Below are positions 18,774-57,511 of a stretch of 64,000 nucleotides of DNA, in pieces. Location: NCBI GenBank assembly GCA_041649025.1, contig JBAZNY010000002.1:70694-134693 (forward strand). The letters are read 5' to 3'. Both the position numbers and the translations under genes were made by a program. Positions within the stretch are counted from its first letter, which is position 1, and each line of letters starts with the position of its first letter. A model generated the notes under the pieces. It searched no databases. It was not told the origin of the DNA and worked only from the letters and a program-made list of their open reading frames with translations. This DNA comes from Bdellovibrionales bacterium (GTDB lineage: Bacteria; Pseudomonadota; Alphaproteobacteria; UBA9219).

Positions 18774-18778
18774 ACTAG

Positions 18779-19870: not shown

Positions 19871-19873
19871 AAT

Positions 19874-20419: not shown

Positions 20420-20493
20420 CGTCGTCTCTATCGCTTGTTAAAATATACCCCGCAGTCGTTTGAATAACCGCAACTGCGGGGCCATTATTATAT

Positions 20494-21594
20494 TTATGGC
20501 GCAGGGCCTTCTTTTCTCTTCTTTTCCCATTGGAGCTTTTTCAGCCAAACGGGCTCATTCTGACGCGGCTTAAAGGAAACGCACAAAGGAACAAACTCAC
20601 CAAAATGATTCCCCTTGTTCTGATTGGTGCACGGAGTGTCCTTGGTCATGTCGTGGCCAAGAAGTTCATTCGTCGGCGTGTTGTTCCAATAGATTTTTTT
20701 GCTATCGTAAAAACCGATGCCGTAAGGAGTCCCAATCATGAGAGAGCAAAGACGGAGCATCCCATTCGGAAAAGCTAGAATACGATCGAACTGCTTGGCG
20801 GAGCAGTATCCATAATATTCCTTGTTTCTCTCAAATTCCTCCTTGACCGTAACGCACTGGGGCATCCGAACATCGATGCCCTTCTCTGTCTCTTTGTACT
20901 TTTGCACTTCTGCAAAGGCCTCCATGTATTCCTTGACGCTGGTATTGATATTATTTGACCAAACGTCGCGCGGAATTCCGCCCTTGAACAAATCATGCAT
21001 GTTGAGCGTCTTGACCCCAAGACCCTTCATAAATTCGATCATGTTGATAAGAGCGAGCTGTCCGTTTTCGGCTTGTGCAGTAAGCCCTTTGTGCACGCAG
21101 CTTGTTACGTGAACGTTGTAGCCCTTTTCGATGGCTTTCTTGATGTTTGAGGTACAGTTTTTGAAGCTACCTTTGCCACGGATGGCATCGTTCATTTCCT
21201 CCGTATAGCCGTCCAGGCTGAACGTAATTTCATCAAGCTCGCGGAAATAGGGATTGTCGAGCAAGGACGGATTGAACATCCCGTTCGTATCGATGCGAAC
21301 GTGCGAATACCCCATTTGCTTCGCTTCATGAATGAGTTCCGGCAGCTTCTTGTATAAAGTCGGCTCTCCTCCCATAAACGTCATCTTAATTGCGCCAAGT
21401 TCGCGCATATTTTTCATGAGATTTAACGCGTCGCCATATTCCATTTCCTTTTTCTGAAGCTGGAATGTGAGTTCAGGCTTGTACAAGCACTGCACGCACC
21501 TCAAATTGCAGGTGTCAGTGAGATACATAAAAACCTGTCCAATTTTATTGTTGAACGCCTGATAAAATTGTTCGTCAATTTCCATTTCGCTCAT
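20494..21594 (-). CDS. radical SAM enzyme with a Cys-rich C-terminal region
   Basis: CNLRCVQC (CX3CX2C) near the N-terminus, then MTFMGGEPTLY, VRIDTNGMF and ITFSLDG. There are additional C-terminal cysteines, possibly an auxiliary cluster domain. Confidence 0.75.
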   Translation of the reverse strand: MSEMEIDEQFYQAFNNKIGQVFMYLTDTCNLRCVQCLYKPELTFQLQKKEMEYGDALNLMKNMRELGAIKMTFMGGEPTLYKKLPELIHEAKQMGYSHVRIDTNGMFNPSLLDNPYFRELDEITFSLDGYTEEMNDAIRGKGSFKNCTSNIKKAIEKGYNVHVTSCVHKGLTAQAENGQLALINMIEFMKGLGVKTLNMHDLFKGGIPRDVWSNNINTSVKEYMEAFAEVQKYKETEKGIDVRMPQCVTVKEEFERNKEYYGYCSAKQFDRILAFPNGMLRLCSLMIGTPYGIGFYDSKKIYWNNTPTNELLGHDMTKDTPCTNQNKGNHFGEFVPLCVSFKPRQNEPVWLKKLQWEKKRKEGPAP

Positions 21595-24807: not shown

Positions 24808-26835
24808 TCAAAGCGCGCTAGTTAATGACAGCAGAGGAAACACCGGTTTTTTCAAGCGAGCCCTTAGTTCATTGAAGTGTTTTCCAGCAAGATCAAACCC
24901 CCCTTTGCTCAGCATCGCGGAACTAATAAAATAGCCATCCCCTTTAACATTCTGCTCATCAACTGCTTTAGCGATGTCATCATGCGTAAGGAGACCAGCA
25001 ACACAGATATTTCCGCCAAAGTGTTGGTTAGACGCGGCAATTATGCGTAAATTACGAACTTTTTCATCAGGACGAAGCAGCTCCGTTGCTGCGTCTAAAA
25101 AAGGCTTCATGATAGAGCTTGTGACAAGAACGGGTTGTTGCAATTCATACTGCCGTTGGTGCGCAGCAATACGCCGGAAAATTGAGAAATCCACATCGTC
25201 ATTCATGAGGATTCCCCATGTTCCGACCTTCTTATCAACCAGCGTTCGCGCCCGCTTCAGTGACTTATAGGCAGAAAGCTCCACATCTCTTTGCATTCCC
25301 CTCGGGTCTCGCACAGCGACGACCATCTTGTTGGCTTGAAGATCATTTAATAGCTGAAGTGCTTCGGTTCGTGACCGTGGAGTTTTCCCATTAACTTCGA
25401 TGATTGTTGATCCCGCTTCGATGCCAGCTTGATCGGCGTTTGATCCTTCAATGACATCTTCTATCGTTGGCGTAAGCCCAGTTCGATTTAGCAATCCTAC
25501 CGTTACAATTATGGCTGTTTTGACAGATGGGCGTAGAGCGGTGACAAATGAATCAATCCGTGCCAATTCTTCTGGTGACAAAAGCAGTTTTGGATTGTGA
25601 TGAAGCGTGCCCGCCGGAAGAGCAACTCGTATATATGACGTCGGCTCATACTTGTCCGCATAACGAATTGTATGCTCGATGTCCTCTAATGGTATCCAAC
25701 TCGTGGCTGCAACAAGAGAAACATCAAACTGAATTCCCAAATCGTGCATTAGCGGTAATGATTGAATAGCAACTTCATGTTGTTCAGGTCTGCCCCCAGG
25801 CATAAGTATTTTTCTGTAGGCAGGGTCCGCGCTGTTCAGCGAGACTTGGAACAGGACTTGCTGGCGAAGCTGATCGTCTTCTGCAATTGCCTTAAGAAGC
25901 TTCTGTTTTAGGTTTCCGCCATGTGTCAGGATGGGGACTTGCGCCTTAGGATCAGCGGCGCATATAAGCTTCAGAACCTTTAGAAATTCAGGATGTTCCG
26001 TTGGCTCCCAATCCATCAGCGCATAACGTAACGGCGGATGCCCAAAACGAGTATTTGCGTCGTAGGAATTTAGAGCGTCCTTAATGTCATCAAGCGATCT
26101 CGCCCATCCGCGCGGGTATCTGACCGTCGAAAAACCTCGATCAACATAACAGAACCGGCATCCCTGATTGCAGTTATTCCATACGAAAGGAATTGCTGCA
26201 TTTTGAGCCGACCCAATAGGAACTTGAAGGGCTTGGGCATCAACGACTTTTGCCACACCTGGTTCAGAAAAATCAAATGTATTCAAAAGCCACTTCCGTA
26301 CCACAGCCTCAAGCGTATCGTTATTATGAACACTCGGTAATGGAATTGCCGGAGAAGGAAATGTTGCCCCGCCAAGAATATGTTGTACCGCCGCTACGCG
26401 CCCATTTAGCACACCCCCTTCATTGAGAAGTTCCACATCGTGCAATAGGGCAAAAGAAATATCTCCCCAATTGATTTGGGCTTTACCTGGATTAGATGCA
26501 GCTCCTGCTTCGAAAGAGCCTTTTCCTAAACGCATATAGGCATCGCATAACAATACTATGGGAGATTCAAACCCAAAAAGTTGACCCTGAACGCTTTGCA
26601 TTTCTTGTTGAGGGATAGGTTTGCTGAGATCGTTAGTACTATTTGAAACTCGAATACGATCAGGAACTAGGATATTGCCGTGAGCATCAAAAAACTGCGA
26701 AAACAGTATGACTGCTTGTGCCAAACCAAGAAAACGAGATTCTTTCGACCCAGCATCGTCAAGAAGACCATATTTCTGAATTTCGATAGCCTTTATCGTT
26801 GAAGAAAATTGTTTTGGCAGCGCGTTATTTACCAT
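24808..26835 (-). CDS. radical SAM / PDZ / DUF512-like multidomain protein with an unassigned roughly 230 aa N-terminal domain
   Basis: CNQGCRFC (CX3CX2C) at about residue 232. A PDZ-like segment IEDVIEGSNADQAGIEAGSTIIEVNGK. The C-terminal FGGNICVAGLLTHDDI resembles DUF512. Confidence 0.6.
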   Translation of the reverse strand: MVNNALPKQFSSTIKAIEIQKYGLLDDAGSKESRFLGLAQAVILFSQFFDAHGNILVPDRIRVSNSTNDLSKPIPQQEMQSVQGQLFGFESPIVLLCDAYMRLGKGSFEAGAASNPGKAQINWGDISFALLHDVELLNEGGVLNGRVAAVQHILGGATFPSPAIPLPSVHNNDTLEAVVRKWLLNTFDFSEPGVAKVVDAQALQVPIGSAQNAAIPFVWNNCNQGCRFCYVDRGFSTVRYPRGWARSLDDIKDALNSYDANTRFGHPPLRYALMDWEPTEHPEFLKVLKLICAADPKAQVPILTHGGNLKQKLLKAIAEDDQLRQQVLFQVSLNSADPAYRKILMPGGRPEQHEVAIQSLPLMHDLGIQFDVSLVAATSWIPLEDIEHTIRYADKYEPTSYIRVALPAGTLHHNPKLLLSPEELARIDSFVTALRPSVKTAIIVTVGLLNRTGLTPTIEDVIEGSNADQAGIEAGSTIIEVNGKTPRSRTEALQLLNDLQANKMVVAVRDPRGMQRDVELSAYKSLKRARTLVDKKVGTWGILMNDDVDFSIFRRIAAHQRQYELQQPVLVTSSIMKPFLDAATELLRPDEKVRNLRIIAASNQHFGGNICVAGLLTHDDIAKAVDEQNVKGDGYFISSAMLSKGGFDLAGKHFNELRARLKKPVFPLLSLTSAL

Positions 26836-36013: not shown

Positions 36014-38965
36014 ATGGCTGCAGTTATCATTCTGGACGAAGTCAAATGCGTCGGATGCAACAAGTGTATTGCAGAGTGCCCTGTCGAAGGGGCCAACGTT
36101 TCCTATCTCAAAGACGGCCGCAGTAAAGTTCGGACTAATCAGGATGCCTGCATTCTTTGCGGTCGATGCGTCGACGTATGCGACCACGGAGCCCGCGATT
36201 ATCGGGACGATACGGAAGCCTTTTTCAGAGATTTGGCCAACGGGGAGCGAATTTCCGTCATTGCCGCGCCCTCTATCCGTTTTAATATTTCCAATTACAA
36301 AAAGCTGTTCGGCTACCTGTCGCAACTCGGAAGCAATCTGATCTACGACGTTTCGTTCGGCGCCGACATATGCACGTGGAGCTATCTTAGGTGCGCCGAG
36401 CAAAAACATCTCGATTCCTTCATCTCCCAAGCTTGTCCGGCCATTGTTTCGTACATTGAAAAACATTGCCCCGAGCTTATCGACCGCCTTGCCCCCTCTC
36501 ACAGCCCGATGCTTTGCACCGCCATTTATTTGAGAAAATACAAGAACATAACGAACAGAATCGCCTTTCTTTCCCCCTGCATCGCCAAGGAGCAAGAGTG
36601 CATCGATACCGACGGCCTTATTTCCTACAACGTCACTTTTAAAAAAATTAAAGCGTATCTTTCAAAAAACAACATCGCCCTCGATATGTATCCCGAAAAG
36701 GATTTCGACGACATCGGATGCGGCTTGGGCGTCGCCTTCAGCCGCCCCGGAGGCTTGCGTGAAAACGTCGAATACCATACGAACAACCAGGCTTGGATAC
36801 GTCAGGTCGAAGGCGTCCGCCCCGCCTGCGATTATCTGAGAAGATATGCCGCACGCGTGAAGACGGGAGAAAAATTACCTTTCCTTATCGACATTCTGAA
36901 TTGTTCGCACGGATGCAATCTTGGAACGGGCACCTGCAAAGAAATCAACGTCGACGACATCGACGCAAAAACGGATCAGCTCAAGAAAGAAAAGCTGAAA
37001 GAGAAGGAAATCGATAGATCGGGAAAAATCATCTACTCTTTGTTTGAAACGTTCGACAAAGAGCTTAGCCTTCAGGATTTTTCGCGAACGTACAAAAACA
37101 AATTGGTTTCGGGCAAACAAAGAGAGTTTACCGAAAGAGAATACGATAAAATGTTCAATGATCTCTACAAGTTCGACGCTGAAAGCCGCCGCATCAATTG
37201 TTTTGCCTGCGGCTATGGCAACTGCAAGGACTTCGCCAAAGCCGTTCTCAGCGGAGACAACCACCCCGGCAATTGCATCAACTACAACCGCGCCGTGGCC
37301 AAAGCGGAACATCAGGAAGTAATGCAACAAAAGCTGAAGGCCGAGGCGGCGACAAGGGCGAAAAGCGACTTTTTAGCCAATATGAGCCATGAAATCCGCA
37401 CGCCTCTCAACGCGGTTCTCGGCATGACCCAGCTTCTTCTCGACACGGAGATGTCTCAGGAACAGCACACATGGGCCCAAATCATCAACCAATCCGGAGA
37501 AAGCCTTCTTGGGTTGATCAACGACATTCTCGATCTCACGAAAATCGAAGCCGAACACCTCAATCTCGAAAGCGTAGACTTTAATCTGTGCTCCGCCGTT
37601 GCCGAAGTGACCGACACGCTCTCCATCAAAGCCCGCGAAAAAGGTCTGGAGATGATCGTTTCTTTCGTCGGCGAGGTACCGGAATATATTAAAGGAGACC
37701 CCGGCAGATTTAAGCAGATTCTTTACAACCTGATCGGCAACGCGACAAAATTCACCCAGAACGGACATATACTGACGCGGATCGTTTCGGAAAAAGTCAA
37801 TAATGACATAATGCTTAAAATTGACGTTGAAGACACGGGCATCGGCATTCCGGAAGAGAAGCTCGCCTACATCTTTGAAAAATTCGCGCAGGGCGAAGAG
37901 TCGACAACGCGCCGTTTCGGCGGAACCGGACTTGGCTTGGCAATCTCGCAAAAGCTTATTCGTCTTATGGGCGGCGAAATCAACGTTACAAGCAAGGAGG
38001 GCCTGGGATCGACATTCTCTTACACCATCCGCATGCGCCCGGGTTCCTCTGAAAACACCATTCAGGAAGTACCCGATGTCTCCCTTAAAAATAAGCGCGC
38101 CCTTATCGTCGACGATTATCTTTTTGGCTGCGAAATCACCAAAGGATGCCTGGATGGTTTTGGCATCAGAGCCGACATCGCAACGACGAAAAAAGAAGCC
38201 CTACAGAAGGTTCTGGACGCGCTGAAAGCCAAGGATCCTTATGATTTTATGATCCTTGATTATAAGCTCGGCGAAGAGAACGGGCTTACGCTATGCGACG
38301 ATATCGCGTTCGCGAAAGGCAGCGCCCTTATGCCTATGATTATTATGGTCACGGCGTACGGATACTTTTCAACGCTTGAAAATCTGGCGGCTCACGGCGT
38401 TATGGGCTTTATGGTCAAACCGTTCTATCCCGCTCAAATGGAAACGACGCTCAAGCTGATTTTGAACGGACGATTGAAAAACATTCCTTTACCGGTCGTC
38501 ACGCGCCACACCGTGTGCAAGATTTTGCATGACGATCTGGCTTCGGAAAATTTAGAAACGGAATCATTTAAAGGCACAAAAATTCTCGTCGTCGAGGACA
38601 TGCCCTTCAATCAGCTTCTTATGACTAAAATTTTGAATAAATTCGGGTGCAACGTCGATATGGCGTCGGACGGATCACAAGCACTGCAGAAAGTCAAAAA
38701 AGTTGATTACGATATCGTCTTTATGGATTGCCAGATGCCGGTTATGGACGGCTATGTTGCAACGCGAGAAATTAGAGAAATTGAAAATAAACTCAATAAA
38801 CACACGCCCATTATCGCCCTGACCGCCGACGCCATGACGGAAGATCGCGAGAGGTGTTTTCAAGCCGGCATGGACGATCATCTTGGCAAGCCCTTTAAAC
38901 AGGAGCAGATTGTGGAGATGATTAAAAAATACAAACCCAAAGATAATTCAGGAAACCCCGCTTGA
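36014..38965 (+). CDS. hybrid sensor histidine kinase with an N-terminal 2x[4Fe-4S] ferredoxin plus [FeFe]-hydrogenase-like domain, HisKA, HATPase_c and two receiver domains
   Basis: CVGCNKCIAECP and CILCGRCVDVC are ferredoxin motifs. H-cluster-like motifs are SQACPAIV (L1 variant), SPCIAKEQE (L2, PCxxKxxE) and NCSHGCNLGTG (L3, CxxGCxxG). H-box SHEIRTPLN; N/G boxes NLIGNATKF and DTGIGI...GGTGLGL. REC domains have ILDYKL and VFMDCQMPVMDG. Confidence 0.85.
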   Translation: MAAVIILDEVKCVGCNKCIAECPVEGANVSYLKDGRSKVRTNQDACILCGRCVDVCDHGARDYRDDTEAFFRDLANGERISVIAAPSIRFNISNYKKLFGYLSQLGSNLIYDVSFGADICTWSYLRCAEQKHLDSFISQACPAIVSYIEKHCPELIDRLAPSHSPMLCTAIYLRKYKNITNRIAFLSPCIAKEQECIDTDGLISYNVTFKKIKAYLSKNNIALDMYPEKDFDDIGCGLGVAFSRPGGLRENVEYHTNNQAWIRQVEGVRPACDYLRRYAARVKTGEKLPFLIDILNCSHGCNLGTGTCKEINVDDIDAKTDQLKKEKLKEKEIDRSGKIIYSLFETFDKELSLQDFSRTYKNKLVSGKQREFTEREYDKMFNDLYKFDAESRRINCFACGYGNCKDFAKAVLSGDNHPGNCINYNRAVAKAEHQEVMQQKLKAEAATRAKSDFLANMSHEIRTPLNAVLGMTQLLLDTEMSQEQHTWAQIINQSGESLLGLINDILDLTKIEAEHLNLESVDFNLCSAVAEVTDTLSIKAREKGLEMIVSFVGEVPEYIKGDPGRFKQILYNLIGNATKFTQNGHILTRIVSEKVNNDIMLKIDVEDTGIGIPEEKLAYIFEKFAQGEESTTRRFGGTGLGLAISQKLIRLMGGEINVTSKEGLGSTFSYTIRMRPGSSENTIQEVPDVSLKNKRALIVDDYLFGCEITKGCLDGFGIRADIATTKKEALQKVLDALKAKDPYDFMILDYKLGEENGLTLCDDIAFAKGSALMPMIIMVTAYGYFSTLENLAAHGVMGFMVKPFYPAQMETTLKLILNGRLKNIPLPVVTRHTVCKILHDDLASENLETESFKGTKILVVEDMPFNQLLMTKILNKFGCNVDMASDGSQALQKVKKVDYDIVFMDCQMPVMDGYVATREIREIENKLNKHTPIIALTADAMTEDRERCFQAGMDDHLGKPFKQEQIVEMIKKYKPKDNSGNPA

Positions 38966-39045
38966 ATGGACTGGTGCAGGACGCGCCAACGGCGTTGGGT
39001 CTTAATGTTTGCTTTAACTCTTGAAGAAATGCACGGATCCCTTTC

Positions 39046-40446
39046 ATGCGCAAAGAAACCGACATTTTAGGAAACGTAGAAATCGATGATTCCGCTTTGT
39101 GGGGCATTCATACAGAGCGCGCCCTGCAAAATTTTGCCGTTTCAGAACGGCGTGTTCCTTTTTCTCTGATTGCAGCCATCGTCACAGTCAAACAGGCGGC
39201 GGCACAGGCCAACGGAGAGCTGGGATATCTTCCACAAAACATCGCCGACGTCCTTGTGGCAGCCTGCGGCAAAATTTGCGGAAATGAAAACGACACGATG
39301 GCTTCTTTTCCCCTCGACGCGTTGCAGGGCGGCGCCGGCACATCCACGAATATGAACGTCAACGAAGTCATCGCCAATGTCGCGCTTCAGGCGATGGGGA
39401 AAAAAGCAGGCGCTTACGACGCCCTCCATCCGCTTAACCACGTCAATCTGCATCAATCGACGAACGACGTGTATCCGACGGCTCTCAGGATCGCCGCCAT
39501 ATCCGGCCTGAGGTCGCTTTCGGACGCGCTCGCAAAACTTCAGGGCGCGATGCAGAACAAGGAAAAAGAATTTCACGACATCCTTAAAATGGGGCGCACG
39601 GAATTGCAGCCTGCCGTGCCGATGACGCTGGGACAGGAGTTTTCCGCCTATTCCGAAGCCGTCGCGCGCGACCGCTGGCGCACGTTTAAATGCGAAGAAC
39701 GCCTGCGCATGGTCAACATAGGAGGAACAGCTATCGGAACGGGTCTGACGGCGCCCAGGGACTATATCTTCCGCGTCATTGAAATACTGCGCTCGCTCAC
39801 GGGCATGGGGCTTGCGCGAAGCGAAAACGTCATCGACGGCACGGCAAACGCCGACGTTTTTGTCGAAGTTTCCGGCATTTTAAAAGCCGCCGCGACGACG
39901 ATGGCCAAAATCGCGGGAGATTTGCGCCTTCTGCATTTTTTGGGCGAAATCGCCCTGCCGCCCATGCAAACCGGATCGTCCATCATGCCGGGAAAAATTA
40001 ATCCCGTCATGACGGAAAGCGTGATGCAAGCAAGTCTTGTCGTCCGCGCTAACGATTTTATGATCGCCGAGTGCGCGGCACACGGTACGCTTCAGATCAA
40101 CGAGTTTATGCCGCTCATTGCCAGCGCCCTTCTTGAATCCATCGATATCCTGAAGAATTCAGCCCTTGCGCTCGCGCCGCATATCGACGCTATCAAGGCC
40201 GACGCCGAACGCTGCCGCAGTTTCGTCGAAAACAGCCCCGCCCTGATGACGGCTTTGCTGCCGCACGTCGGCTATGAAAAGACGCTGCTTCTGATGAACG
40301 AATTCAACGCCCTTAAAAAGAAAAACGCCGAAACTTTCATTACGAGCTTTCTCGCCGAAAAACTAGGCAACGAGATCGCCAAAACCGTTTTATCCACGAC
40401 GAATTTTATCGGCCTTGGATACGTGAAAAAGGAACATAAAGAATGA
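39046..40446 (+). CDS. aspA: aspartate ammonia-lyase family (class II fumarase/aspartase superfamily) protein
   Basis: Collinear by eye with AspA: DILG...YGIHTERALQNF, GGAGTSTNMNVNEVIAN, HQSTNDVYPTA, KMGRTELQPAVPMTLGQEF and the signature GSSIMPGKINPV. Confidence 0.8.
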   Translation: MRKETDILGNVEIDDSALWGIHTERALQNFAVSERRVPFSLIAAIVTVKQAAAQANGELGYLPQNIADVLVAACGKICGNENDTMASFPLDALQGGAGTSTNMNVNEVIANVALQAMGKKAGAYDALHPLNHVNLHQSTNDVYPTALRIAAISGLRSLSDALAKLQGAMQNKEKEFHDILKMGRTELQPAVPMTLGQEFSAYSEAVARDRWRTFKCEERLRMVNIGGTAIGTGLTAPRDYIFRVIEILRSLTGMGLARSENVIDGTANADVFVEVSGILKAAATTMAKIAGDLRLLHFLGEIALPPMQTGSSIMPGKINPVMTESVMQASLVVRANDFMIAECAAHGTLQINEFMPLIASALLESIDILKNSALALAPHIDAIKADAERCRSFVENSPALMTALLPHVGYEKTLLLMNEFNALKKKNAETFITSFLAEKLGNEIAKTVLSTTNFIGLGYVKKEHKE

Positions 40447-41699
40447 TCGACCAGACTCCCAACACTCCGAAAGCGATGCGCCTGCATATTGGAATCATGG
40501 GCAGAATGAACGTCGGAAAGTCTTCGTTCTTGAATATGGTGGCCGGACAAGATGTCGCCATTACTTCGCCTGAGGCTGGAACGACGACGGATGTCGTTGA
40601 AAAGACTATGGAATTGTTGCCTTTGGGGCCTGTCGTTTTGCTGGATACGGCGGGGATCGACGACACGTCCGCGCTCGGCATCGCGCGTGTCGATAAGGCG
40701 AAAAAAGCCGTCCAGCGCATGGATGTTCTTGTGCTTATCGTCACGCCCAACGACTGGAGCGAATTCGAAGACGCCTTGGTGAACGAGGCTCATGCCCACA
40801 ACATTCCGGCGCTTGTCGTCATCAACAAGACCGATTTGGCGGAACCTTCGACCGATTTTCTCGCCCTTCTGGACGTCAAAAAACTTTCTTGGGTCGCAGG
40901 AAGTTCGACCGACGAATCCAAAAAAGAAGATTTCAAAAATGAATTCAAGCAAAGCCTGCGCGCTATGCTTCCCCGCCTTTTCGCCGCGCCGCAATCCCTT
41001 ATCGGCGACTTGCTGCCGCCCGGAGGCATGGCGGTTTTTGTCGTTCCCATCGATCTTGGCGCGCCGCAGGGGCGCCTTATCGTTCCTCAAGTGCAGGCGT
41101 TGCGCGATCTTCTCGACAACGACGCGTCAGCCCTTGTCGTCAAAGACAGGGAATACGCCGCGACGCTTGCGCGGCTTAAAAAAATGCCCGATCTCGTCGT
41201 GTGCGACTCTCAGGTGGTCGCGCGCGTCGTCGCGGATACGCCTGAAAGCGTTCCCCTGACGACTTTTTCCATTCTTTTCTCGCGCTTTAAGGGAGATCTC
41301 GCGCTGCAAGCCGAAGGCGCGGCAGCGCTTGAAAAATTGAATGACGGAGACAAGGTTCTGATTGCGGAAGGATGCTCGCACCATCCGATGGAGGATGACA
41401 TCGGGCGCATCAAAATCCCGCGCTGGCTTAAGCAATATAGCGGAAAAAACATTACGATTGAGTCTTCCGCAGGGCACGATTTCCCCGCGAATTTACAGGA
41501 TTATAAGGTCGTCATTCATTGCGGCGGCTGCGTCATGACAAAGCAGGAAATGTCGTCGCGCCTGTCCATCGCCAAAGGAAAATCCGTGCCGATGACAAAC
41601 TACGGCATTGCGATTTCCGCCCTGCAGGGGGTTTTGAAGCGCGCCCTGTCCCCCTTCCCCGCCGCGCTCGCAGCCTATGAGAAGGCAAAGAAATTTTAG
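40443..41699 (+). CDS. hydF: [FeFe]-hydrogenase H-cluster maturation GTPase HydF
   Basis: GTPase motifs GRMNVGKSS, TTD, DTAG and NKTD. C-terminal cluster motif CSH...(about 50 aa)...HCGGC, i.e. CxH-x(n)-HCxxC. The ATGA overlap with the aspA stop is at 40443-40446. Confidence 0.85.
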   Translation: MIDQTPNTPKAMRLHIGIMGRMNVGKSSFLNMVAGQDVAITSPEAGTTTDVVEKTMELLPLGPVVLLDTAGIDDTSALGIARVDKAKKAVQRMDVLVLIVTPNDWSEFEDALVNEAHAHNIPALVVINKTDLAEPSTDFLALLDVKKLSWVAGSSTDESKKEDFKNEFKQSLRAMLPRLFAAPQSLIGDLLPPGGMAVFVVPIDLGAPQGRLIVPQVQALRDLLDNDASALVVKDREYAATLARLKKMPDLVVCDSQVVARVVADTPESVPLTTFSILFSRFKGDLALQAEGAAALEKLNDGDKVLIAEGCSHHPMEDDIGRIKIPRWLKQYSGKNITIESSAGHDFPANLQDYKVVIHCGGCVMTKQEMSSRLSIAKGKSVPMTNYGIAISALQGVLKRALSPFPAALAAYEKAKKF

Positions 41700-42301
41700 T
41701 GCCTCAGGCTTTCAGGGTTAAGGCCTTTTAGTCTATCCACGAACGTATTTCTCTGATCTTCCGGCTCCGAGATTCCGGATGCCTTCAATATCATAGAACG
41801 AGCGGACGCGATATGCATCTCATCTCTCTTCCCGATATACGGATCTCCCGCACCCTCTTTCACAACGCCATACGCGACATTTGCAAGATGCGGGTTGCGT
41901 TTCAAAACGGAGCTTAACGGATCACGCTTCCCCATGACATGGGGTGTCGCGGTCGCCTGTGATAAAATAGGTAACAACCTATCATCAGCACCCGGAAATT
42001 TTTGCAGAAGCTCGTCAACAAAATCCAGCGCAGCGCCAAGAGAAAAATTCCGATCCTCCGCCTTAGCCTGCATAATATTTCGTTGGACACCCTTTTCAAT
42101 TGCATCGCCAATCAGAGTCTCGCCCATCACTCTCGGATTATTTTCTATCCTATTCATGATATGTTGGCGCAGTTTATCAAATCCTGAGGTCTGACCGAGA
42201 GCCGCATCTGGGTCCCCCATCCAAGCGAATAGATGTTCCATATCTTTTGTGAGTTCTTCGATCGCAGAATTTGTAATTAAATGGTCGTTCATTTTCTTCA
42301 T
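41696..42301 (-). CDS. hypothetical protein
   Basis: 201 aa ORF, convergent with hydF (4 bp stop overlap). No recognised motif. Confidence 0.45.
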   Translation of the reverse strand: MKKMNDHLITNSAIEELTKDMEHLFAWMGDPDAALGQTSGFDKLRQHIMNRIENNPRVMGETLIGDAIEKGVQRNIMQAKAEDRNFSLGAALDFVDELLQKFPGADDRLLPILSQATATPHVMGKRDPLSSVLKRNPHLANVAYGVVKEGAGDPYIGKRDEMHIASARSMILKASGISEPEDQRNTFVDRLKGLNPESLRH

Positions 42302-45109: not shown

Positions 45110-45490
45110 TCACTTCTTGGTAGCGATCTTCTTGCCGGCAATCGGCCTGGCCTTGCCCTTGCGGGTGCGCGCATTGGTATGCGTGCGTTGTCCGCGGACG
45201 GGAAGGCCCTTACGATGGCGCAGGCCGCGGTAGCAGCCCAAATCCATCAAACGCTTAATGTTCATTGAAACTTCACGGCGCAAATCGCCTTCGACTTTAT
45301 AGTTCTTGTCGATGTCTTCGCGCACTTTCAGAATTTCGCCTTCGGTCAACGTATTGACTCGCTTTGTCGGATCGATGCCGACACGGGCGCAGATTTCCAG
45401 GGCATTCGTCGGCCCAATGCCGAAGATGTAACGTAACGCAATGTGCAACGGCTTTGCCGCCGGAATATTAACGCCTGCAATACGAGCCAC
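45110..45490 (-). CDS. rpsM: 30S ribosomal protein S13
   Basis: (V)ARIAGVNIP...ALRYIFGIG...[26 protein letters not shown]. The GTG start at 45490 is preferred over the long upstream ORF extension. Confidence 0.93.
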
Positions 45491-45653
45491 TTTGTTCTCC
45501 AAAAAAACAACAAAAACACCGCATTGGCGAGAGATGCCTCGCGCGCCAAAACGGAGTTCATTTGCATAAGTTTTTAGCCCCAATCCCGAAGCTAAGGTGG
45601 CGCAGTATAGGGATTGATCGACCAGAGTCAAGCACGGAAGAAGCATTTAGGGG

Positions 45654-45806: not shown

Positions 45807-47540
45807 TCATATCGAAAGCATATAGGGCACACGAATCTCGAACTTTGTTCCGAGGTTTAGCTCGGAAAAGACCTCCAGAGTGCCGTTAAGATTGTCGACC
45901 TCGCGCTTGACGACGTTCATGCCGACTCCGCGACCGGATAGTTCCGAGACGTTTTCGCGCGTCGAAACGCCAAACGTAAATACGTTTTGGATGATGGCGT
46001 GATCATCCAGATCGTTCCATGGCTTCCCCGGCTCCATTTGCATAAGTTTTTCGCGAACGCGCGCAGGATCAATGCCGCCGCCGTCGTCGGAAATGGTTAT
46101 GGTGAGCCATTGTTTTTCGGTCTCTTTGTCCTGAACAACGTTCGTTTCAACCGAAACAAGCCCCGCAGGGTCTTTTCCCCGCGCAAGACGCGTCACCGTC
46201 GGTTCGATGCCGTGATCGATGATGTTGCGGCAAACGTGGGTCAAAGAAAAAAGCAACGACTGATATTCCCGCATTAGGATCGGCGGATTCGATCCGGAAT
46301 AACGAACGGGTTTTATTTGCTTGCCCGTAATCTCGGCGAGGTCGAGCAGTTCGCGTTCAAACTGGCGGAAACAATCCTGAATGGGAACCGCCACGATAAA
46401 CCGTAAATAATGATCGATGACGTCATGACCAATTCCCGATACGCTCATGACAAGCGCAAAATTATATAAAGCGCTTTCTTCGATTTCACGCGTATTGCCG
46501 CGCCGTTCGTAATCCTGCCCGATAAGGTCTTTGATGCCGTCAAGCACGGCGGTTAGTTCTTTATCGACGCAAAGGCGTCCCGCTTCCAAAACCTTATTGA
46601 ATTCTTCATCGGAGTCTATCGCTTCGCTGCGCAACTCGGACTCCAACCCATGCACCGTGTCGGCGAGATTTTTGAGATGAAAGTGTTTGACGGCCGCTTT
46701 CAGCGTATGAAGAAGCCGCAACAACGGCGTCGAGTCTTTGCGGGTAATGGACGCCGCCGCCTGCTCCAAAAACGTCCGCACATGGGTGATTGTCGCGAGG
46801 AACTGGTTGCGCTCGCGGAAGATGCGGCAAATCATGTCGGCATATTCCTGCCGCTGCTTGGCAAGCTCTTGCGCTTCGTATTCTTCCGTCACGTCGGTCG
46901 CGATCAAAACGACGCGCATCAGCGCATGCCCTTTCGCATAAATCGGCTTGTAGACAAGATTGACCCGCCGTTTTTTCGGATGGGGGAAAAGCTGCGGTAA
47001 AAAATTGATGACGTCGGGAAATCCAAGCGCGTGATCCGGCATAAACAATATCTCTAGCCATCCCTTGAAATCGGCGCGCGCTTCTTCGGAAACCCGCAGG
47101 ACATCCAAGATATCCTTGCCGCCAGGATCCGTTCCCAATAACTCAAGGCAAGCCTGGGAATAGACTTTGTCGCATATGCCGTCCCGCCCGAAAGACAGGA
47201 AGCCCTGCCCCAAGCTGTTGACAAGAACCTCGTTCAGGCGGTCATGATCGCTGACGAGCTTATACACGGCGTAGTTAAGGTAAGAGAGATAACTTATGCC
47301 CCCAAACGTTGCGGCCAATATGACAAAAAAACTATTTTTGTGCGTCACAGGCTCATATCCGAAAACAGGCAAGGCGACGGCGAAAAGCAGGATCAAGATG
47401 ATCGCCACCATTCCCGCTAACGACGTGTGCAAAAGGCTAAAACGGCGCGCCGCTTCGGTTACGACAGATTTCCCGTCTGCAGGTACCGGCTGCGCCGCCA
47501 TATCAGGCAGAATCTTGAGCCTATCCTTTGAATCAAACAT
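45807..47540 (-). CDS. membrane-anchored CheA-like histidine kinase (Hpt plus HATPase_c, no CheW-like domain recognised)
   Basis: N-terminal TM helices. Hpt-like LLHTLKAAVKHF. ATPase boxes NIIDHGIE, ISDDGGGID and GRGVGMNVVKREVDNLNGTLEV. Confidence 0.65.
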   Translation of the reverse strand: MFDSKDRLKILPDMAAQPVPADGKSVVTEAARRFSLLHTSLAGMVAIILILLFAVALPVFGYEPVTHKNSFFVILAATFGGISYLSYLNYAVYKLVSDHDRLNEVLVNSLGQGFLSFGRDGICDKVYSQACLELLGTDPGGKDILDVLRVSEEARADFKGWLEILFMPDHALGFPDVINFLPQLFPHPKKRRVNLVYKPIYAKGHALMRVVLIATDVTEEYEAQELAKQRQEYADMICRIFRERNQFLATITHVRTFLEQAAASITRKDSTPLLRLLHTLKAAVKHFHLKNLADTVHGLESELRSEAIDSDEEFNKVLEAGRLCVDKELTAVLDGIKDLIGQDYERRGNTREIEESALYNFALVMSVSGIGHDVIDHYLRFIVAVPIQDCFRQFERELLDLAEITGKQIKPVRYSGSNPPILMREYQSLLFSLTHVCRNIIDHGIEPTVTRLARGKDPAGLVSVETNVVQDKETEKQWLTITISDDGGGIDPARVREKLMQMEPGKPWNDLDDHAIIQNVFTFGVSTRENVSELSGRGVGMNVVKREVDNLNGTLEVFSELNLGTKFEIRVPYMLSI

Positions 47541-47576
47541 ATAAAAAATCTTTCAATCTGAAAGCCTCGACGATTC

Positions 47577-48086
47577 TCATCCCAATTCATGAGAGTCATG
47601 CAAGGCGACATAAACTTGGAACAATTTCCCATCAAGATGGAAGGGAACGATCATGTATTTGCCGCGATGAAACTGACAGACAAAATGCCCCTTGCCAGTC
47701 ACAACACAGGGAATACCAAGCTTGATCTGGTGTTTTCTTTGGTTCAGCTCGTTTTTGACTTGTCCAAAGATCATGTTCGTCAATTCGCCGACGGCATCGA
47801 TGGTCATTTCCTGCGTGACGGTAATGGACTTCCCCAGCACCTGCGGCAAAATGTCGCGTAACGTTTCGGACGTCATGCACAGAATCAACGTCCCGTCCAA
47901 TTGCGACTGAACCAAACCGATAAGGCCGGAAATATCGCCGACGAGCGACACCATGCCTTCGCCAAATTCGGGCTTTCCTGCAACAACGGTGCAGCTGAAC
48001 ATCTCGCTCATCGAACGAATGACGGCTTTAGTAATGTCTTTGGCTAAGACGTCATCGAGAGAAATGGGTGTTTGCTCATCGGACAT
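47577..48086 (-). CDS. CheX/CheC-like chemotaxis phosphatase family protein
   Basis: ISGLIGL...GTLILCM...DAVGELTNMIFGQVKNEL resembles CheX. Confidence 0.6.
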   Translation of the reverse strand: MSDEQTPISLDDVLAKDITKAVIRSMSEMFSCTVVAGKPEFGEGMVSLVGDISGLIGLVQSQLDGTLILCMTSETLRDILPQVLGKSITVTQEMTIDAVGELTNMIFGQVKNELNQRKHQIKLGIPCVVTGKGHFVCQFHRGKYMIVPFHLDGKLFQVYVALHDSHELG

Positions 48087-48098
48087 GGGAAACTCCTT

Positions 48099-48587
48099 TT
48101 AATTAAAAATTCCGCTCGAAACCTGACGCTTACGTTTGAGCCATTCGTTGATTTCAAAAAGCTTCTTACCCAAATCCGAAGGAGAAACGGGCTTGACAAT
48201 ATATGAGGTCGCTCCGGCCTTAATGGCCTTCATAATGTTCTGTTGTTCCGATTCCGCCGTCAGCATAACGAAGGCGGTATCCGAATATTCGGGTTTAGCC
48301 CGAAAATAACTCAGCACCTCCAATCCCGAAATCGTGGGCATATTCCAATCAAGGAAAACAATGTCAAAGGGTTGCCCTGCGAGCTTCGACTTCTGGACGA
48401 GATCTATTGTCTCGTTACCGTCCGCCGCCGTTTGCACGTTTTCAATCTTCGACTCTTTCAAAGTGTTGCGAACAAACTGCCGTATTAAAAAATGGTCATC
48501 GGCAATAAGCACGTTCAGACTAGCCAGTTGACTCACGTTTGTTCTCCTCAACAGGTATGGATCGTTTTCGATCCCCCGCTCGTTCAC
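48099..48587 (-). CDS. single-domain CheY-like response regulator
   Basis: VLIADDHFLIR, DIVFLDWNMPTISGLEV, MLTAES and YIVKP. Confidence 0.85.
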   Translation of the reverse strand: MNERGIENDPYLLRRTNVSQLASLNVLIADDHFLIRQFVRNTLKESKIENVQTAADGNETIDLVQKSKLAGQPFDIVFLDWNMPTISGLEVLSYFRAKPEYSDTAFVMLTAESEQQNIMKAIKAGATSYIVKPVSPSDLGKKLFEINEWLKRKRQVSSGIFN

Positions 48588-56703: not shown

Positions 56704-57195
56704 TTATGATAGAGCCGCCTCTGCTTCTTTCATGGAAATCATAAGGAGCCACGAGTTAATCGGAGACTCGCGAAATCCGGACTGTTCATAGAAATGCTTG
56801 GCTCTGTGGGAAAGGGCGCGCACGAAGATTCCCCTTATGCCAACAATGGCTGCAGCTTCTGTCGTTCGCCAAACGGCGTCCCGAAGAAGCGCTCGTCCTA
56901 GTCCTTGGCGTTGATGCTCTTGATCGACAGCAAGGCGTCCAAACAACATCATCGGAATCGGATCAGGCATATTGCGTTTTATGTTTTTGTAAGCTTCGTT
57001 TATTTGGACGGCTCCGGCTGAAAGACAATAGTAACCTATAACTCGATCGGCCTCGCAGATCACATAAGTTTTCGAAGCTCCGCTTTTTTGATTGGCGAGC
57101 GCTCTTTGTCGCAACCACATATCAAGAACGGATTCACCGCAGCTAAACAAGGTTATATCATGATCTTCCGTCAAAAGTTTGGGGGCTAATATCAT
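56704..57195 (-). CDS. GNAT-family toxin of a TacT/AtaT-like type II toxin-antitoxin pair
   Basis: 163 aa. FSCGESVLDMWLRQRALAN..., LAVDQEHQRQGLGRALLRDAV, directly downstream of a DUF1778-type gene. Confidence 0.8.
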   Translation of the reverse strand: MILAPKLLTEDHDITLFSCGESVLDMWLRQRALANQKSGASKTYVICEADRVIGYYCLSAGAVQINEAYKNIKRNMPDPIPMMLFGRLAVDQEHQRQGLGRALLRDAVWRTTEAAAIVGIRGIFVRALSHRAKHFYEQSGFRESPINSWLLMISMKEAEAALS

Positions 57196-57208
57196 GAATT
57201 GAGTTCTT

Positions 57209-57511
57209 TTACTCCCAAGGAGCCGCTGTTTGCATCAGTTTACGCAACTCTGCATTACTCCCTGCGGGAGCATCAAGCATAGCGACAAATTTCTTGTAGA
57301 CCCCCGGATCAACCTGAAAAAGGGTTTTATTTAGAATAGTGTTTATCGCTTCGCGGCGGGCAGCTTCAAGCATGAAATCGGAACGTGTTTTACCCTCGGA
57401 TTCCGCAGCTTGATCAATAAGCGCGCGATCACAAATCTTCGCGCGGATATTGATAACTCCGGTACGCTTGAGCATAGGCTTTTGTTTCAACAAATTCGAT
57501 GATTTTGCCAT
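57209..57511 (-). CDS. DUF1778 (TacA-like) antitoxin
   Basis: INIRAKICDRALIDQAAESEGKTRSDFMLEAARREA...FVAMLDAP is the typical DUF1778 pattern. Confidence 0.8.
   Translation of the reverse strand: MAKSSNLLKQKPMLKRTGVINIRAKICDRALIDQAAESEGKTRSDFMLEAARREAINTILNKTLFQVDPGVYKKFVAMLDAPAGSNAELRKLMQTAAPWE

What the first reader, a model, noticed from the sequence alone, without database searches (positions are those of the whole stretch)
36014..41699. Putative H2/redox-sensing hybrid histidine kinase built on an [FeFe]-hydrogenase-like domain, in an operon with an aspartase-family lyase and the maturase HydF
Seen: the 983 aa kinase starts with two ferredoxin-type CxxCxxCxxxCP motifs, followed by a domain carrying the three [FeFe]-hydrogenase H-cluster signatures. 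L2 is intact (SPCIAKEQE, i.e. PCxxKxxE, near 36568-36598) and L3 is intact (NCSHGCNLGTG, i.e. CxxGCxxG, at 36901-36930). L1 reads SQACPAIV (near 36424-36447) instead of TSCCPxW. It therefore retains the cluster-ligating Cys but has Ala at the proton-relay Cys position. HisKA, HATPase and two receiver domains follow. The aspA-like gene begins 80 bp downstream, and its stop overlaps (ATGA, 40443-40446) the start of a convincing hydF with GTPase motifs plus CxH...HCxxC.

Established knowledge: HydF is a dedicated scaffold for H-cluster assembly, together with HydE and HydG. As I recall, loss of the proton-relay Cys is a feature of putative sensory [FeFe] hydrogenases (HydS-type). I also recall, unverified, that aspartase-like genes sometimes accompany hydEFG.

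Inference: the kinase domain probably binds a real H-cluster and signals H2 or redox state directly through phosphorelay. Described HydS-type sensory hydrogenases use a PAS domain, whereas this fuses the hydrogenase-like domain directly to a histidine kinase, which I have not seen characterised. The lyase might supply ammonium for the azadithiolate bridge, which is speculative. No catalytic hydA, hydE or hydG is in the window.
Basis: partly seen in the sequence, partly recalled or inferred. Interest (0 to 1): 0.75.

Follow-up and report, generated by a model that had tools for sequence, protein, structure and literature searches.

The report
Hydrogenase-like sensor fused to histidine kinase
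A soluble signalling kinase uses a "sensory-type" [FeFe]-hydrogenase domain as its input and sits just upstream of two genes that help build the hydrogenase cofactor; it probably senses H2 or redox state, but it belongs to a large, already catalogued, biochemically untested family.

Summary
ORF 36014-38965 (983 aa) has this architecture:
- two ferredoxin-type [4Fe-4S] motifs
- an [FeFe]-hydrogenase H-domain with L1 SQACPAIV, L2 SPCIAKEQE and L3 NCSHGCNLGTG
- a Cx2Cx4Cx16C cluster motif
- HisKA, HATPase and two receiver domains, with no PAS domain

An aspartase-like gene starts 80 bp downstream. Its stop overlaps (ATGA) the start of a clear hydF.

The active-site signature matches characterised "sensory" hydrogenases: Ala at the relay-Cys position as in TmHydS, and Ser and Leu at the M353 and M497 positions as in TamHydS. 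The AlphaFold model (pLDDT 89) matches only [FeFe]-hydrogenases.

The fusion is not unique:
- About 70 of the best 150 50%-identity cluster representatives carry the same sensor module on a histidine kinase.
- The nearest sensor relatives are fused to chemoreceptor (MCP) outputs, so the module is a swappable input.
- HydDB already lists kinase-linked (C1) and chemotactic (C2) putative sensory groups.
- The aspA-hydF link and ammonium supply for the azadithiolate bridge were published in 2024.

Linkage of the sensor gene to aspA-hydF is specific to this lineage. Seven related sensor loci lack it, and a syntenic relative has aspA-hydF without the kinase. hydE, hydG and hydA are absent from about 80 kb of the contig. 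The rest of the genome could not be checked.

Verdict: a new member of a known, uncharacterised kind, of moderate interest.

The parts
36014..38965 (+). Gene for a 983-aa soluble hybrid histidine kinase with an [FeFe]-hydrogenase-like sensor module
   Evidence: ORF and translation. Pfam domain set. No hydrophobic segment reaches transmembrane level: maximum Kyte-Doolittle 19-mer score is 1.5. The identical protein occurs in ENA, JGI, Logan and NCBI (MFA4993986.1).
36026..36196 (+). Two ferredoxin-type [4Fe-4S] motifs (aa 5-61; C12, C15, C18, C22 and C46, C49, C52, C56)
   Evidence: Fer4 family hits. All eight Cys are invariant or at least 90% conserved in alignments A1 and A2.
36251..36943 (+). 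H-domain (aa 80-310). Ligands: L1 A140-C141, L2 C189/K192/E195, L3 C297/C301. Position equivalent to M353 is S187; position equivalent to M497 is L295.
   Evidence: PF02906 at 1.7e-27. Residue-level alignments to TmHydA and CbA5H. AlphaFold model pLDDT 89.2. Foldseek top 50 hits are all [FeFe]-hydrogenases, best E 8e-19.
37193..37279 (+). C-terminal Cx2Cx4Cx16C Fe-S motif (C396, C399, C404, C421), the accessory cluster typical of group C and D sensory hydrogenases
   Evidence: PF04060 at 6.7e-07. Motif coordinates. The four Cys are invariant among 40 kinase-fused relatives. Described for the M2e and M2f subclasses in PMC8163306.
37277..37357 (+). Predicted continuous helix (aa 422-448) linking the last cluster Cys to the HisKA domain. 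There is no room for a PAS domain.
   Evidence: The model has helix 422-442, running to the end of the modelled fragment. Only 37 residues separate C421 from H459.
37358..38035 (+). Kinase core: HisKA (aa 449-514; phospho-acceptor H459 at 37388-37390) and HATPase_c (aa 561-674; N box NLIGNATKF, G1 DTGIGI, G2 GGTGLGLAI)
   Evidence: Pfam. Motif positions. H459, N572, N576, D607, G609, G611, G637, G639 and G641 are invariant in alignment A2.
38096..38458 (+). Receiver domain 1 (aa about 695-815; D700/D701, D749, T780, K802)
   Evidence: One of the two Response_reg stretches. Motif positions.
38582..38926 (+). Receiver domain 2 (aa 857-971; D862, D905, T937, K959)
   Evidence: Response_reg best stretch 857-971. 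D905 and K959 are at least 90% conserved in alignment A2.
38966..39045 (.). 80-bp spacer between the kinase and the lyase gene
   Evidence: Sequence. The consensus scan finds no promoter-like or terminator-like site in it. Co-transcription is plausible but not shown.
39046..40446 (+). Aspartate ammonia-lyase-like gene (466 aa) of the hydF-associated type
   Evidence: Lyase_1 at 5e-74. NCBIfam PRK12273 scores 543 bits, above its cutoff of 510. The TIGR00839 aspA equivalog scores 438, below its cutoff of 681. GSSIMPGKINP loop is present. Orthologues (69% and 66% identity) lie directly upstream of hydF in L095 and in Rhizomicrobium palustre.
40443..41699 (+). hydF, the H-cluster maturation GTPase and scaffold (418 aa); its start overlaps the lyase stop (ATGA)
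   Evidence: TIGR03918 scores 514 bits against a cutoff of 325.55. HydF_dimer and HydF_tetramer domains are present. GTPase and CxH...HCxxC motifs are present.
41706..41726 (+). Terminator-like hairpin just after hydF; weak, consensus-level evidence only
   Evidence: Terminator-like sites in the region number 16 against 10.4 +/- 2.7 in shuffles, so a single site carries little weight.

Best explanation
The gene encodes a cytoplasmic hybrid histidine kinase whose input is a sensory-type [FeFe]-hydrogenase module. This module resembles HydDB group C/D: two N-terminal [4Fe-4S] clusters, an H-cluster site lacking the catalytic proton-transfer residues, and a C-terminal Cx2Cx4Cx16C cluster.

Proposed mechanism (inferred):
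1. The H-cluster reacts slowly and reversibly with H2.
2. The resulting redox or conformational change at the H-cluster and the adjacent C-terminal cluster passes through the helix that runs straight from C421 into the DHp bundle.
3. This changes autophosphorylation at H459.
4. Phosphoryl groups pass to the receiver domains (D749, D905) and on to an unidentified Hpt protein and response regulator.

The two downstream genes are H-cluster maturation genes. HydF is the scaffold and carrier of the [2Fe] precursor. The aspartase-like lyase supplies ammonium for the dithiomethylamine bridge.

Shown here: domain identities, ligand conservation, fold, family size, and gene order.
Inferred: [2Fe]H binding, H2 responsiveness, the route of signal transmission, and co-transcription.
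For: Sensor module:
- Domain architecture and motifs.
- Residue-level alignment to solved hydrogenases places all four H-cluster Cys and K358/E361 correctly.
- These residues are invariant across 51 MCP-fused and 40 kinase-fused relatives, as are A85-P86 and the F242...P245-G246-G247 pocket segments.
- The fold matches only [FeFe]-hydrogenases.

Sensory signature:
- A140 is at the C299 position, as A131 is in TmHydS (PMC10055695).
- S187 and L295 are at the M353 and M497 positions, as in TamHydS (PMC8163306).
- E279 has no counterpart in either alignment, and neither alignment places Glu at E282 (Y124 against CbA5H, a gap against TmHydA). A160 sits at the S319 position by my own residue counting from S164-P165 (S323-P324).
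- TmHydS and TamHydS bind a real H-cluster and react with H2 (PMC8163306, PMC10055695).

Output and context:
- The kinase and receiver catalytic residues are intact.
- A genuine hydF lies 1.5 kb downstream on the same strand. The gaps are short or overlapping, and the scan predicts no terminator between the genes.
- AspA-type lyases support DTMA synthesis in vitro and cluster with hydF (PMC11736057).
- The same sensor module is used with MCP, kinase, kinase+PAS/GAF and Hpt-containing outputs, as expected for a portable input domain.
Against: - No member of the kinase- or MCP-fused clades has been characterised. H2 sensing is only 'putative' even for group C (PMC8924675, PMC5037454).
- Most family members have Pro, not Ala, at the relay position (55 of about 70). 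Its effect on [2Fe] binding is unknown.
- Linkage to hydF is not conserved in seven related sensor loci.
- The aspA-hydF pair exists without the kinase in a syntenic relative.
- hydE and hydG were not found in the 80 kb examined, and their presence in the genome is untested.
- No cognate Hpt protein or response regulator, and no regulated target, was identified.
Confidence: 0.6

Rival explanations
1. The adjacency is a lineage-specific juxtaposition, not a dedicated maturation operon. On this reading, aspA-hydF is a conserved two-gene unit that mainly serves catalytic (group A) hydrogenases encoded elsewhere, and the sensor-kinase gene simply landed upstream of it. This is compatible with the kinase still being an H2 sensor.
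For: - L095 is a close relative (RpoA 91%, HydF 80%, AspA 69% identical) with the same order aspA-hydF-...-rplQ-rpoA-rpsK-rpsM-cheA-like-cheX-cheY-dsbA. It has ComEC, not a sensor kinase, upstream of aspA.
- In Rhizomicrobium palustre the orthologous pair follows hydA (two copies), hydB, hydC and hydE (TIGR03956, 344 bits).
- Another MAG has hydG-hydCBA-aspA-hydF-hydE.
- Kinase homologues P0124, P0125 and P0126, and MCP homologue P0001, have no hyd genes within their flanks.
Against: - The genes share a strand, the gap is only 80 bp, and no predicted terminator lies in it.
- The arrangement is identical in three independent assemblies, but these carry the same sequence.
- Placing a protein that needs an H-cluster next to its maturase is functionally coherent.
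Confidence: 0.5
2. The module binds only [4Fe-4S] clusters and no [2Fe] subsite, like Nar1/NARF-type proteins. It would then act as a redox, O2 or ferredoxin-pool sensor and not as an H2 sensor.
For: - The relay Cys and the proton pathway are absent.
- Pro at the relay position predominates in the family.
- Most related loci have no hyd maturase nearby.
- No biochemical data exist for this clade.
Against: - Residues that contact the [2Fe] subsite in catalytic enzymes are retained and invariant: K192 (K358), the bridging Cys C301 (C503), A85-P86-S87 (A230-P231-S232), and F242 (F417).
- Group C and D enzymes with the same substitutions do bind an H-cluster (PMC8163306, PMC10055695).
- hydF lies immediately downstream.
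- The closest relatives come from lineages that carry hydEF and hydA.
Confidence: 0.2
3. The hydrogenase module is catalytic, producing or consuming H2, and the kinase part is regulated by something else.
For: All cluster ligands are intact, and the N-terminal ferredoxin-like clusters could act as an electron relay.
Against: - The canonical proton-transfer pathway is missing at C299, E279, E282 and S319.
- There is no partner subunit and no Fe_hyd_SSU domain.
- Characterised enzymes with this signature have low turnover (PMC8163306, PMC10055695).
- No other input domain is available for the kinase.
Confidence: 0.03

Closest known systems
TmHydS (Thermotoga maritima; HydDB group C, subclass M2f), a putative sensory [FeFe]-hydrogenase
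   Same: Two N-terminal [4Fe-4S] motifs. An H-domain with Ala at the relay-Cys position (A131 there, A140 here). A small residue at the M353 position. No canonical proton pathway. A C-terminal Cx2Cx4Cx16C cluster (PMC10055695, PMC8163306).
   Different: TmHydS continues into a PAS domain and has no kinase. Here the cluster motif runs through about 37 residues of helix directly into HisKA. The M497 position is Ser in TmHydS and Leu here.
TamHydS (Thermoanaerobacter mathranii; group D, subclass M2e)
   Same: No PAS domain. Identical pair of substitutions (M353 to Ser, M497 to Leu). The same accessory clusters (PMC8163306).
   Different: [quoted passage not shown] Here the output is fused. Direct sequence comparison was not possible because the sequence is not held.
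HydDB group C2 'chemotactic' and C1 'histidine kinase-linked' putative sensory [FeFe]-hydrogenases
   Same: All 120 best matches to the sensor module are MCP-fused proteins of about 637 aa (52-69% identity), which is the C2 concept. Dozens of 50%-identity clusters carry the module on a histidine kinase, which is the C1 concept.
   Different: In several published cases of C1, 'linked' means a neighbouring kinase gene and not a fusion (PMC6163223). This protein's sensor nests within the MCP-fused clade in a neighbour-joining tree. The HydDB classifier itself could not be run.
[NiFe] regulatory hydrogenase HoxBC with histidine kinase HoxJ (HydDB [NiFe] group 2b)
   Same: The same logic: a low-activity hydrogenase used as an H2 sensor that controls a histidine kinase (PMC5037454, PMC8163306).
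   Different: The metal centre and fold are unrelated. The sensor and kinase are separate subunits, and HoxJ has a PAS-like domain.
aspA-hydF association in hyd operons (Pagnier et al., J Biol Chem 2024)
   Same: An aspartate ammonia-lyase gene lies immediately upstream of hydF. It is proposed, and shown in vitro, to supply ammonium for the dithiomethylamine ligand (PMC11736057).
   Different: In this window the pair is not accompanied by hydE, hydG or hydA. It follows a sensory hydrogenase-kinase gene instead.

Membership tests
[FeFe]-hydrogenase H-domain (Pfam PF02906) | Significant match to Fe_hyd_lg_C and a hydrogenase fold | tested here: met
   PF02906 at 1.7e-27, 97 bits against a cutoff of 22.1. 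Foldseek top 50 hits are all [FeFe]-hydrogenases, E down to 8e-19, TM about 0.65.
[FeFe]-hydrogenase H-domain (Pfam PF02906) | Four Cys ligands of the H-cluster (L1 C300, L2 C355, L3 C499 and C503 in CpI numbering) plus the L2 Lys and Glu | tested here: met
   C141, C189, C297, C301, K192 and E195 align to these positions. They are invariant or at least 90% conserved in alignments A1 and A2.
[FeFe]-hydrogenase H-domain (Pfam PF02906) | Catalytic proton-transfer pathway (C299, E279, E282, S319) of prototypical group A enzymes | tested here: not met
   A140 replaces C299. The segment around E279 and E282 is 3-5 residues shorter: E279 has no counterpart, and E282 falls on Y124 (CbA5H alignment) or in a gap (TmHydA alignment). 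A160 at the S319 position comes from my own residue counting. The NCBIfam group-A model gives no hit; only FeFe_hydrog_B1 matches, at 137 bits against a cutoff of 450.
[FeFe]-hydrogenase H-domain (Pfam PF02906) | Binds a [2Fe]H subcluster and turns over H2 | not testable with these tools
   Requires maturation followed by FTIR, EPR or activity assays.
Putative sensory [FeFe]-hydrogenases (HydDB group C/D; subclasses M2f/M2e) | [quoted passage not shown] | tested here: met
   Fer4 hits at aa 5-61. PF04060 and the exact spacing C396-x2-C399-x4-C404-x16-C421. Definition taken from PMC8163306.
Putative sensory [FeFe]-hydrogenases (HydDB group C/D; subclasses M2f/M2e) | Relay Cys lost; M353 and M497 replaced | tested here: met
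   A140, S187 and L295. Compare TmHydS A131/G177/S267 and TamHydS Ser/Leu (PMC10055695, PMC8163306).
Putative sensory [FeFe]-hydrogenases (HydDB group C/D; subclasses M2f/M2e) | PAS domain after the C-terminal cluster (the usual textbook definition of group C / M2f) | tested here: not met
   No PAS hit. Only 37 residues separate C421 from H459. Among 40 kinase-fused relatives, at most 6 have any PAS family hit.
Putative sensory [FeFe]-hydrogenases (HydDB group C/D; subclasses M2f/M2e) | Assignment to C1, C2, C3 or D by the HydDB k-NN classifier or a reference phylogeny | not tested
Nearest neighbours are MCP-fused (C2-like) proteins.
Hybrid sensor histidine kinase (HisKA / HATPase_c / REC) | H box, N, G1 and G2 boxes, and receiver Asp and Lys residues | tested here: met
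   HisKA 1.5e-20, HATPase_c 5e-27, two REC domains. H459, N572/N576, D607-G611, G637-G641, D749, D905 and K959.
HydF (NCBIfam TIGR03918) | Score above the equivalog cutoff; GTPase motifs; HydF dimer and tetramer domains; CxHx(n)HCxxC | tested here: met
   514 bits against a cutoff of 325.55. PF18128 at 1e-37 and PF18133 at 3.5e-46. Motifs are visible in the translation.
Aspartate ammonia-lyase (class II fumarase/aspartase superfamily) | Family model above cutoff and the GSSxMPxKxN signature loop | tested here: inconclusive
   The PRK12273 subfamily model scores 543, above its cutoff of 510. The aspA equivalog TIGR00839 scores 438, below its cutoff of 681.2. GSSIMPGKINP is present. Substrate specificity cannot be tested here.
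Nar1/NARF-type hydrogenase-like proteins (no [2Fe] subsite) | Loss of the residues that contact the [2Fe] subsite, and occurrence without HydEFG (definition from my own knowledge) | tested here: not met
   K192, A85-P86-S87, F242 and the bridging C301 are retained and conserved. hydF is adjacent. No direct alignment to Nar1 sequences was made.

The most novel reading that the evidence does not exclude
This would be a self-contained [FeFe]-type H2-sensing phosphorelay kinase. A matured H-cluster in a portable input module would control autophosphorylation directly through the helix that leaves the C-terminal [4Fe-4S] site, with no PAS domain. The same module would drive chemotaxis when fused to MCP outputs. 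The gene order here, sensor followed by aspA-hydF, would be the first genomic hint that these kinase- and MCP-fused clades need the [2Fe] maturation machinery. If the genome had no catalytic hydrogenase, that machinery would be kept solely for a sensor.
Probability: 0.45. Interest if true: 0.6.

Novelty: new member of a known kind. Interest (0 to 1): 0.4.

Why it matters
How [FeFe]-type "sensory" hydrogenases pass on a signal is unresolved. [quoted passage not shown]

A one-polypeptide sensor-kinase offers a direct and easily measured readout, namely H2-dependent autophosphorylation. The family is large, so the result would generalise. The family also shows that the same input module has been moved between chemotaxis and phosphorelay outputs.

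This particular gene adds little beyond another member. Its one distinctive point is the unusual adjacency to aspA-hydF.

Tried and rejected
1. Single-sequence AlphaFold run on aa 1-443: pLDDT 33, unusable. Repeated with a 51-sequence alignment.

2. The search for related loci in genome contigs with the full-length protein.

3. The search for related loci in metagenome contigs with alignment A1. Only 4 loci were returned, none with hydF or aspA.

4. Two contig look-ups failed because I trimmed the wrong end of minus-strand ORFs or picked the wrong start. The same error affected RpoA.

About 41 kb of the 123-kb ENA contig, and the rest of the MAG, were therefore not examined.

6. Search for hydE of the same MAG, using Rhizomicrobium palustre HydE as query. 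One hit labelled 'Bdellovibrionales bacterium' belongs to a different assembly (MGE4350796.1, GCA_050252315.1). Ten unnamed NCBI hits carry no accession. Presence of hydE and hydG in this genome remains unknown.

7. The two radical SAM genes in the window (20494-21594 and 24808-26835) were checked and rejected as hydE or hydG. There is no TIGR03956-type hit, and all other hits are far below cutoffs.

8. The Nar1-like and catalytic-enzyme readings were considered and ranked low (see rival explanations).

9. The Greening 2016 ISME J paper that defined group C is not held, so group definitions rest on the HydDB paper and later reviews.

Full report
**1. Observation**

The ORF at 36014-38965 (+) encodes 983 aa. 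Pfam finds the following:
- two ferredoxin-type 4Fe-4S motifs (aa 5-61)
- Fe_hyd_lg_C (aa 80-304, E 1.7e-27)
- PF04060 'putative Fe-S cluster' (aa 394-422)
- HisKA (aa 449-514)
- HATPase_c (aa 561-674)
- two receiver domains, with no PAS domain

- L1 SQACPAIV at 36425-36448
- L2 SPCIAKEQE at 36572-36598
- L3 NCSHGCNLGTG at 36899-36931

This is exactly the accessory-cluster motif described for sensory [FeFe]-hydrogenases (PMC8163306).

The lyase gene (39046-40446) begins 80 bp after the kinase stop. Its TGA overlaps the hydF ATG at 40443-40446. hydF is unambiguous: TIGR03918 scores 514 bits against a cutoff of 325.55, the HydF dimer and tetramer domains are present, and so are the GTPase and CxH...HCxxC motifs. 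The lyase passes the NCBIfam aspartate ammonia-lyase subfamily cutoff (543 against 510) but not the aspA equivalog cutoff (438 against 681). It has the GSSIMPGKINP loop.

**2. Is the hydrogenase-like module a real H-cluster domain?**

HMMER alignments to solved enzymes (TmHydA 7p5h, CbA5H) give these correspondences:

| Here | Catalytic enzyme |
|---|---|
| A140-C141 | CC of TSCCP |
| S187-P-C189-x-x-K192-x-x-E195 | MPCxxKxxE |
| D-I-L295-N-C297-x-x-G-C301 | ExMxCxxGC |
| A85-P86-S87 | APA/APS pocket segment |
| F242-x-x-P-G-G | FGxxGG pocket segment |

All these residues are invariant or nearly so in 51 MCP-fused and 40 kinase-fused relatives.

A single-sequence AlphaFold run failed (pLDDT 33). 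With a 51-sequence alignment the model reached pLDDT 89.2 and pTM 0.88. Its 50 best Foldseek matches in the PDB are all [FeFe]-hydrogenases, including TkHydA, CbA5H, TmHydA, DdH and CpI, with E down to 8e-19.

The canonical proton pathway is absent:
- Ala replaces C299.
- The E279/E282 segment is 3-5 residues shorter: E279 has no counterpart in either alignment, and neither alignment places a Glu at E282.
- Ala sits at the S319 position, by my own counting back from S164-P165.

This combination matches the characterised sensory enzymes. TmHydS has A131 at the relay position, G177 at M353 and S267 at M497 (PMC10055695). TamHydS has Ser at M353 and Leu at M497 (PMC8163306), the same pair as S187 and L295 here. 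Both enzymes bind a bona fide H-cluster. I therefore regard a Nar1-like module with no [2Fe] subsite as unlikely but not excluded.

**3. Source and surroundings**

The exact protein is on record as NCBI MFA4993986.1, 'MAG: response regulator [Bdellovibrionales bacterium]'. It is also present in ENA, JGI and Logan assemblies. The window corresponds to about positions 8293-72292 of a 123-kb ENA contig.

Flanking genes:
- Upstream, same strand: GDT1-like and CitMHS transporters.
- Downstream, opposite strand: rplQ-rpoA-rpsK-rpsM, then a cheA-like/cheX/cheY set.

Called genes across contig positions 1581-82140 include no hydA, hydE or hydG. The two radical SAM genes in the window are not HydE or HydG. 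The remainder of the contig and of the MAG could not be read. An attempt to find the MAG's own HydE through a homologue search failed.

**4. How common is the architecture?**

A word-index search with aa 1-432 returned 3,674 relatives. The best 120 are all MCP-fused proteins of about 637 aa, at 52-69% identity. This is HydDB's 'chemotactic' C2 concept.

An exhaustive HMMER search of 1.84 billion cluster representatives with the full-length protein showed that the fusion to a kinase is also common. About 70 of the best 150 representatives carry the L1, L2, L3 and Cx2Cx4Cx16C signature plus a HisKA H box.

A Pfam scan of 40 of these representatives gave the following counts:

| Pfam family | Members (of 40) |
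|---|---|
| Fe_hyd_lg_C + HisKA + HATPase_c | 40 |
| Response_reg | 36 |
| Hpt | 17 |
| any single PAS family | at most 6 |
| GAF | 4 |

The closest relative, P0124 (991 aa, 64% identity), has the same architecture and the same QAC L1 motif. Most others have Pro at the relay position (55 QPC, 3 QAC plus 1 SAC, 3 QSC).

In a neighbour-joining tree of 191 sensor modules, the window protein groups with P0124, P0125 and P0130. This small kinase clade is nested within a 123-member MCP clade, which is itself nested among other kinase-fused lineages. Parsimony requires at least five output switches. The tree has no support values, and sampling is biased by how the sequences were retrieved.

The sensor is thus a portable input module. 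The kinase half has its own closest relatives (58-62% identity) in proteins with other N-termini (P0129, P0131, P0132).

**5. Is the 'operon' conserved?**

It is not conserved on the kinase side. Loci encoding P0124, P0125, P0126, the closest MCP-fused protein P0001, and three metagenomic relatives contain no hydF or aspA in the available flanks.

From the hydF side:
- The nearest HydF homologues (about 80% identity) come from MAGs labelled Alphaproteobacteria, and Rhizomicrobium palustre HydF is 70% identical.
- A JGI contig (L095) is clearly syntenic, with RpoA 91%, RpsM 96%, HydF 80% and AspA 69% identical. It has the order aspA-hydF-...-rplQ-rpoA-rpsK-rpsM-cheA-like-cheX-cheY-dsbA, but ComEC instead of the sensor kinase upstream.
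- In R. palustre the orthologous aspA-hydF pair follows two group-A hydA genes, hydB, hydC and hydE.
- Another MAG has hydG-hydCBA-aspA-hydF-hydE.

So aspA-hydF is the conserved unit, normally attached to catalytic hydrogenase genes. Its position behind a sensor kinase is peculiar to this lineage.

The consensus scan finds no promoter-like or terminator-like site in the 80-bp spacer, and a weak terminator-like hairpin follows hydF. Co-transcription is plausible but unproven.

**6. Literature**

- HydDB already defines C1 (histidine kinase-linked), C2 (chemotactic) and C3 (phosphatase-linked) putative sensory [FeFe] groups (PMC5037454).
- 'Linked' can mean a neighbouring gene (PMC6163223), but fused kinase-type domains have been reported (PMC11406978).
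- Reviews and biochemical papers still describe group C as PAS-containing, and call the sensory role putative (PMC8924675, PMC11216029, PMC13104023).
AspA or SdaA with their substrates can supply the nitrogen of the dithiomethylamine bridge in vitro. 79% of authentic hydF genes have an ammonia-lyase gene within 20 ORFs, and aspA tends to lie especially close (PMC11736057).

**7. Mechanism**

Shown here:
- a soluble protein, with no transmembrane segment
- intact cluster ligands
- an intact kinase and two intact receiver domains (H459, D749, D905)
- a predicted helix running from C421 towards the HisKA domain
- a maturase gene next door

Inferred:
- The module is matured by HydEFG.
- H2 binding and oxidation shift the redox or conformational state of the H-cluster and C-terminal cluster region.
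- The helix transmits this change to the DHp domain, as it would to the MCP coiled coil in the C2 relatives.
- A phosphorelay follows, to an unknown Hpt protein and response regulator.

A caveat is that in TamHydS the C-terminal cluster is not reduced under H2 (PMC13104023). Transmission may therefore be conformational and not redox-based.

**8. Verdict**

The sensory reading is reasonable and consistent with all the sequence and structural evidence. However, the architecture is a member of a large, already catalogued family, the lyase idea is published, and the operon is a lineage-specific juxtaposition.

I rate novelty as a new member of a known kind, and interest as moderate (0.4). The protein's main value is as a convenient experimental system for the open question of how [FeFe] sensory hydrogenases signal.

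Noticed in passing
window 18222-21594 (-): An odd four-gene cluster: a dCTP-deaminase-like gene, a truncated AlaRS-like gene (tRNA-synt_2c, 363 aa), a second dCTP-deaminase-like gene, and a 366-aa radical SAM gene whose MoaA- and viperin-like hits are all far below cutoffs. It may be a nucleotide-modification or defence-type module.
   Followed up: no
window 45807-48587 (-); L095 16524-20867: A CheA-like protein (Hpt + HATPase_c, 577 aa), CheX and a CheY-like receiver lie directly beside the rpsM-rpoA-rplQ operon. The arrangement is conserved in the syntenic relative L095, which has an additional MCP-CZB gene. No link to the sensor kinase was found.
   Followed up: partly
window 45458-45562 (-): An Rfam Alpha_RBS (alpha-operon leader) hit of 42.5 bits lies inside the 5' end of the mechanical ORF 45110-45646. 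The Pfam S13 match starts at aa 55 and tblastn identity starts at aa 45. The real rpsM start is therefore internal, and the upstream part is the regulatory leader.
   Followed up: partly
window 56704-57511 (-): A TacA1-like antitoxin (PF08681) is paired with a GNAT acetyltransferase, which looks like a TacAT-type toxin-antitoxin pair (L004 16374-17145).
   Followed up: no
whole window; L095, L096, L099: The taxonomic label is doubtful. NCBI names the MAG 'Bdellovibrionales bacterium'. The nearest HydF, AspA and sensor-module relatives, however, come from Alphaproteobacteria and Rhizomicrobium, and the locus of the closest MCP-fused homologue carries GcrA, which to my knowledge is an alphaproteobacterial regulator.
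   Followed up: partly
tool behaviour: The word-index homologue search with aa 1-432 did not return the query's own protein or the 64%-identical kinase-fused P0124, although both are in the collection. Taken alone, it would have suggested wrongly that only MCP fusions exist.
   Followed up: yes
window 24808-26835 (-): A large (675 aa) protein combining radical SAM, PDZ and DUF512 domains, with no NCBIfam hit above cutoff.
   Followed up: no
L098 (GCA_050252315.1, JBFWLD010000011.1): A different MAG labelled 'Bdellovibrionales' carries a complete hydG / hydC-hydB-hydA-aspA-hydF-hydE cluster. MAGs given this label therefore can encode catalytic [FeFe]-hydrogenases.
   Followed up: partly
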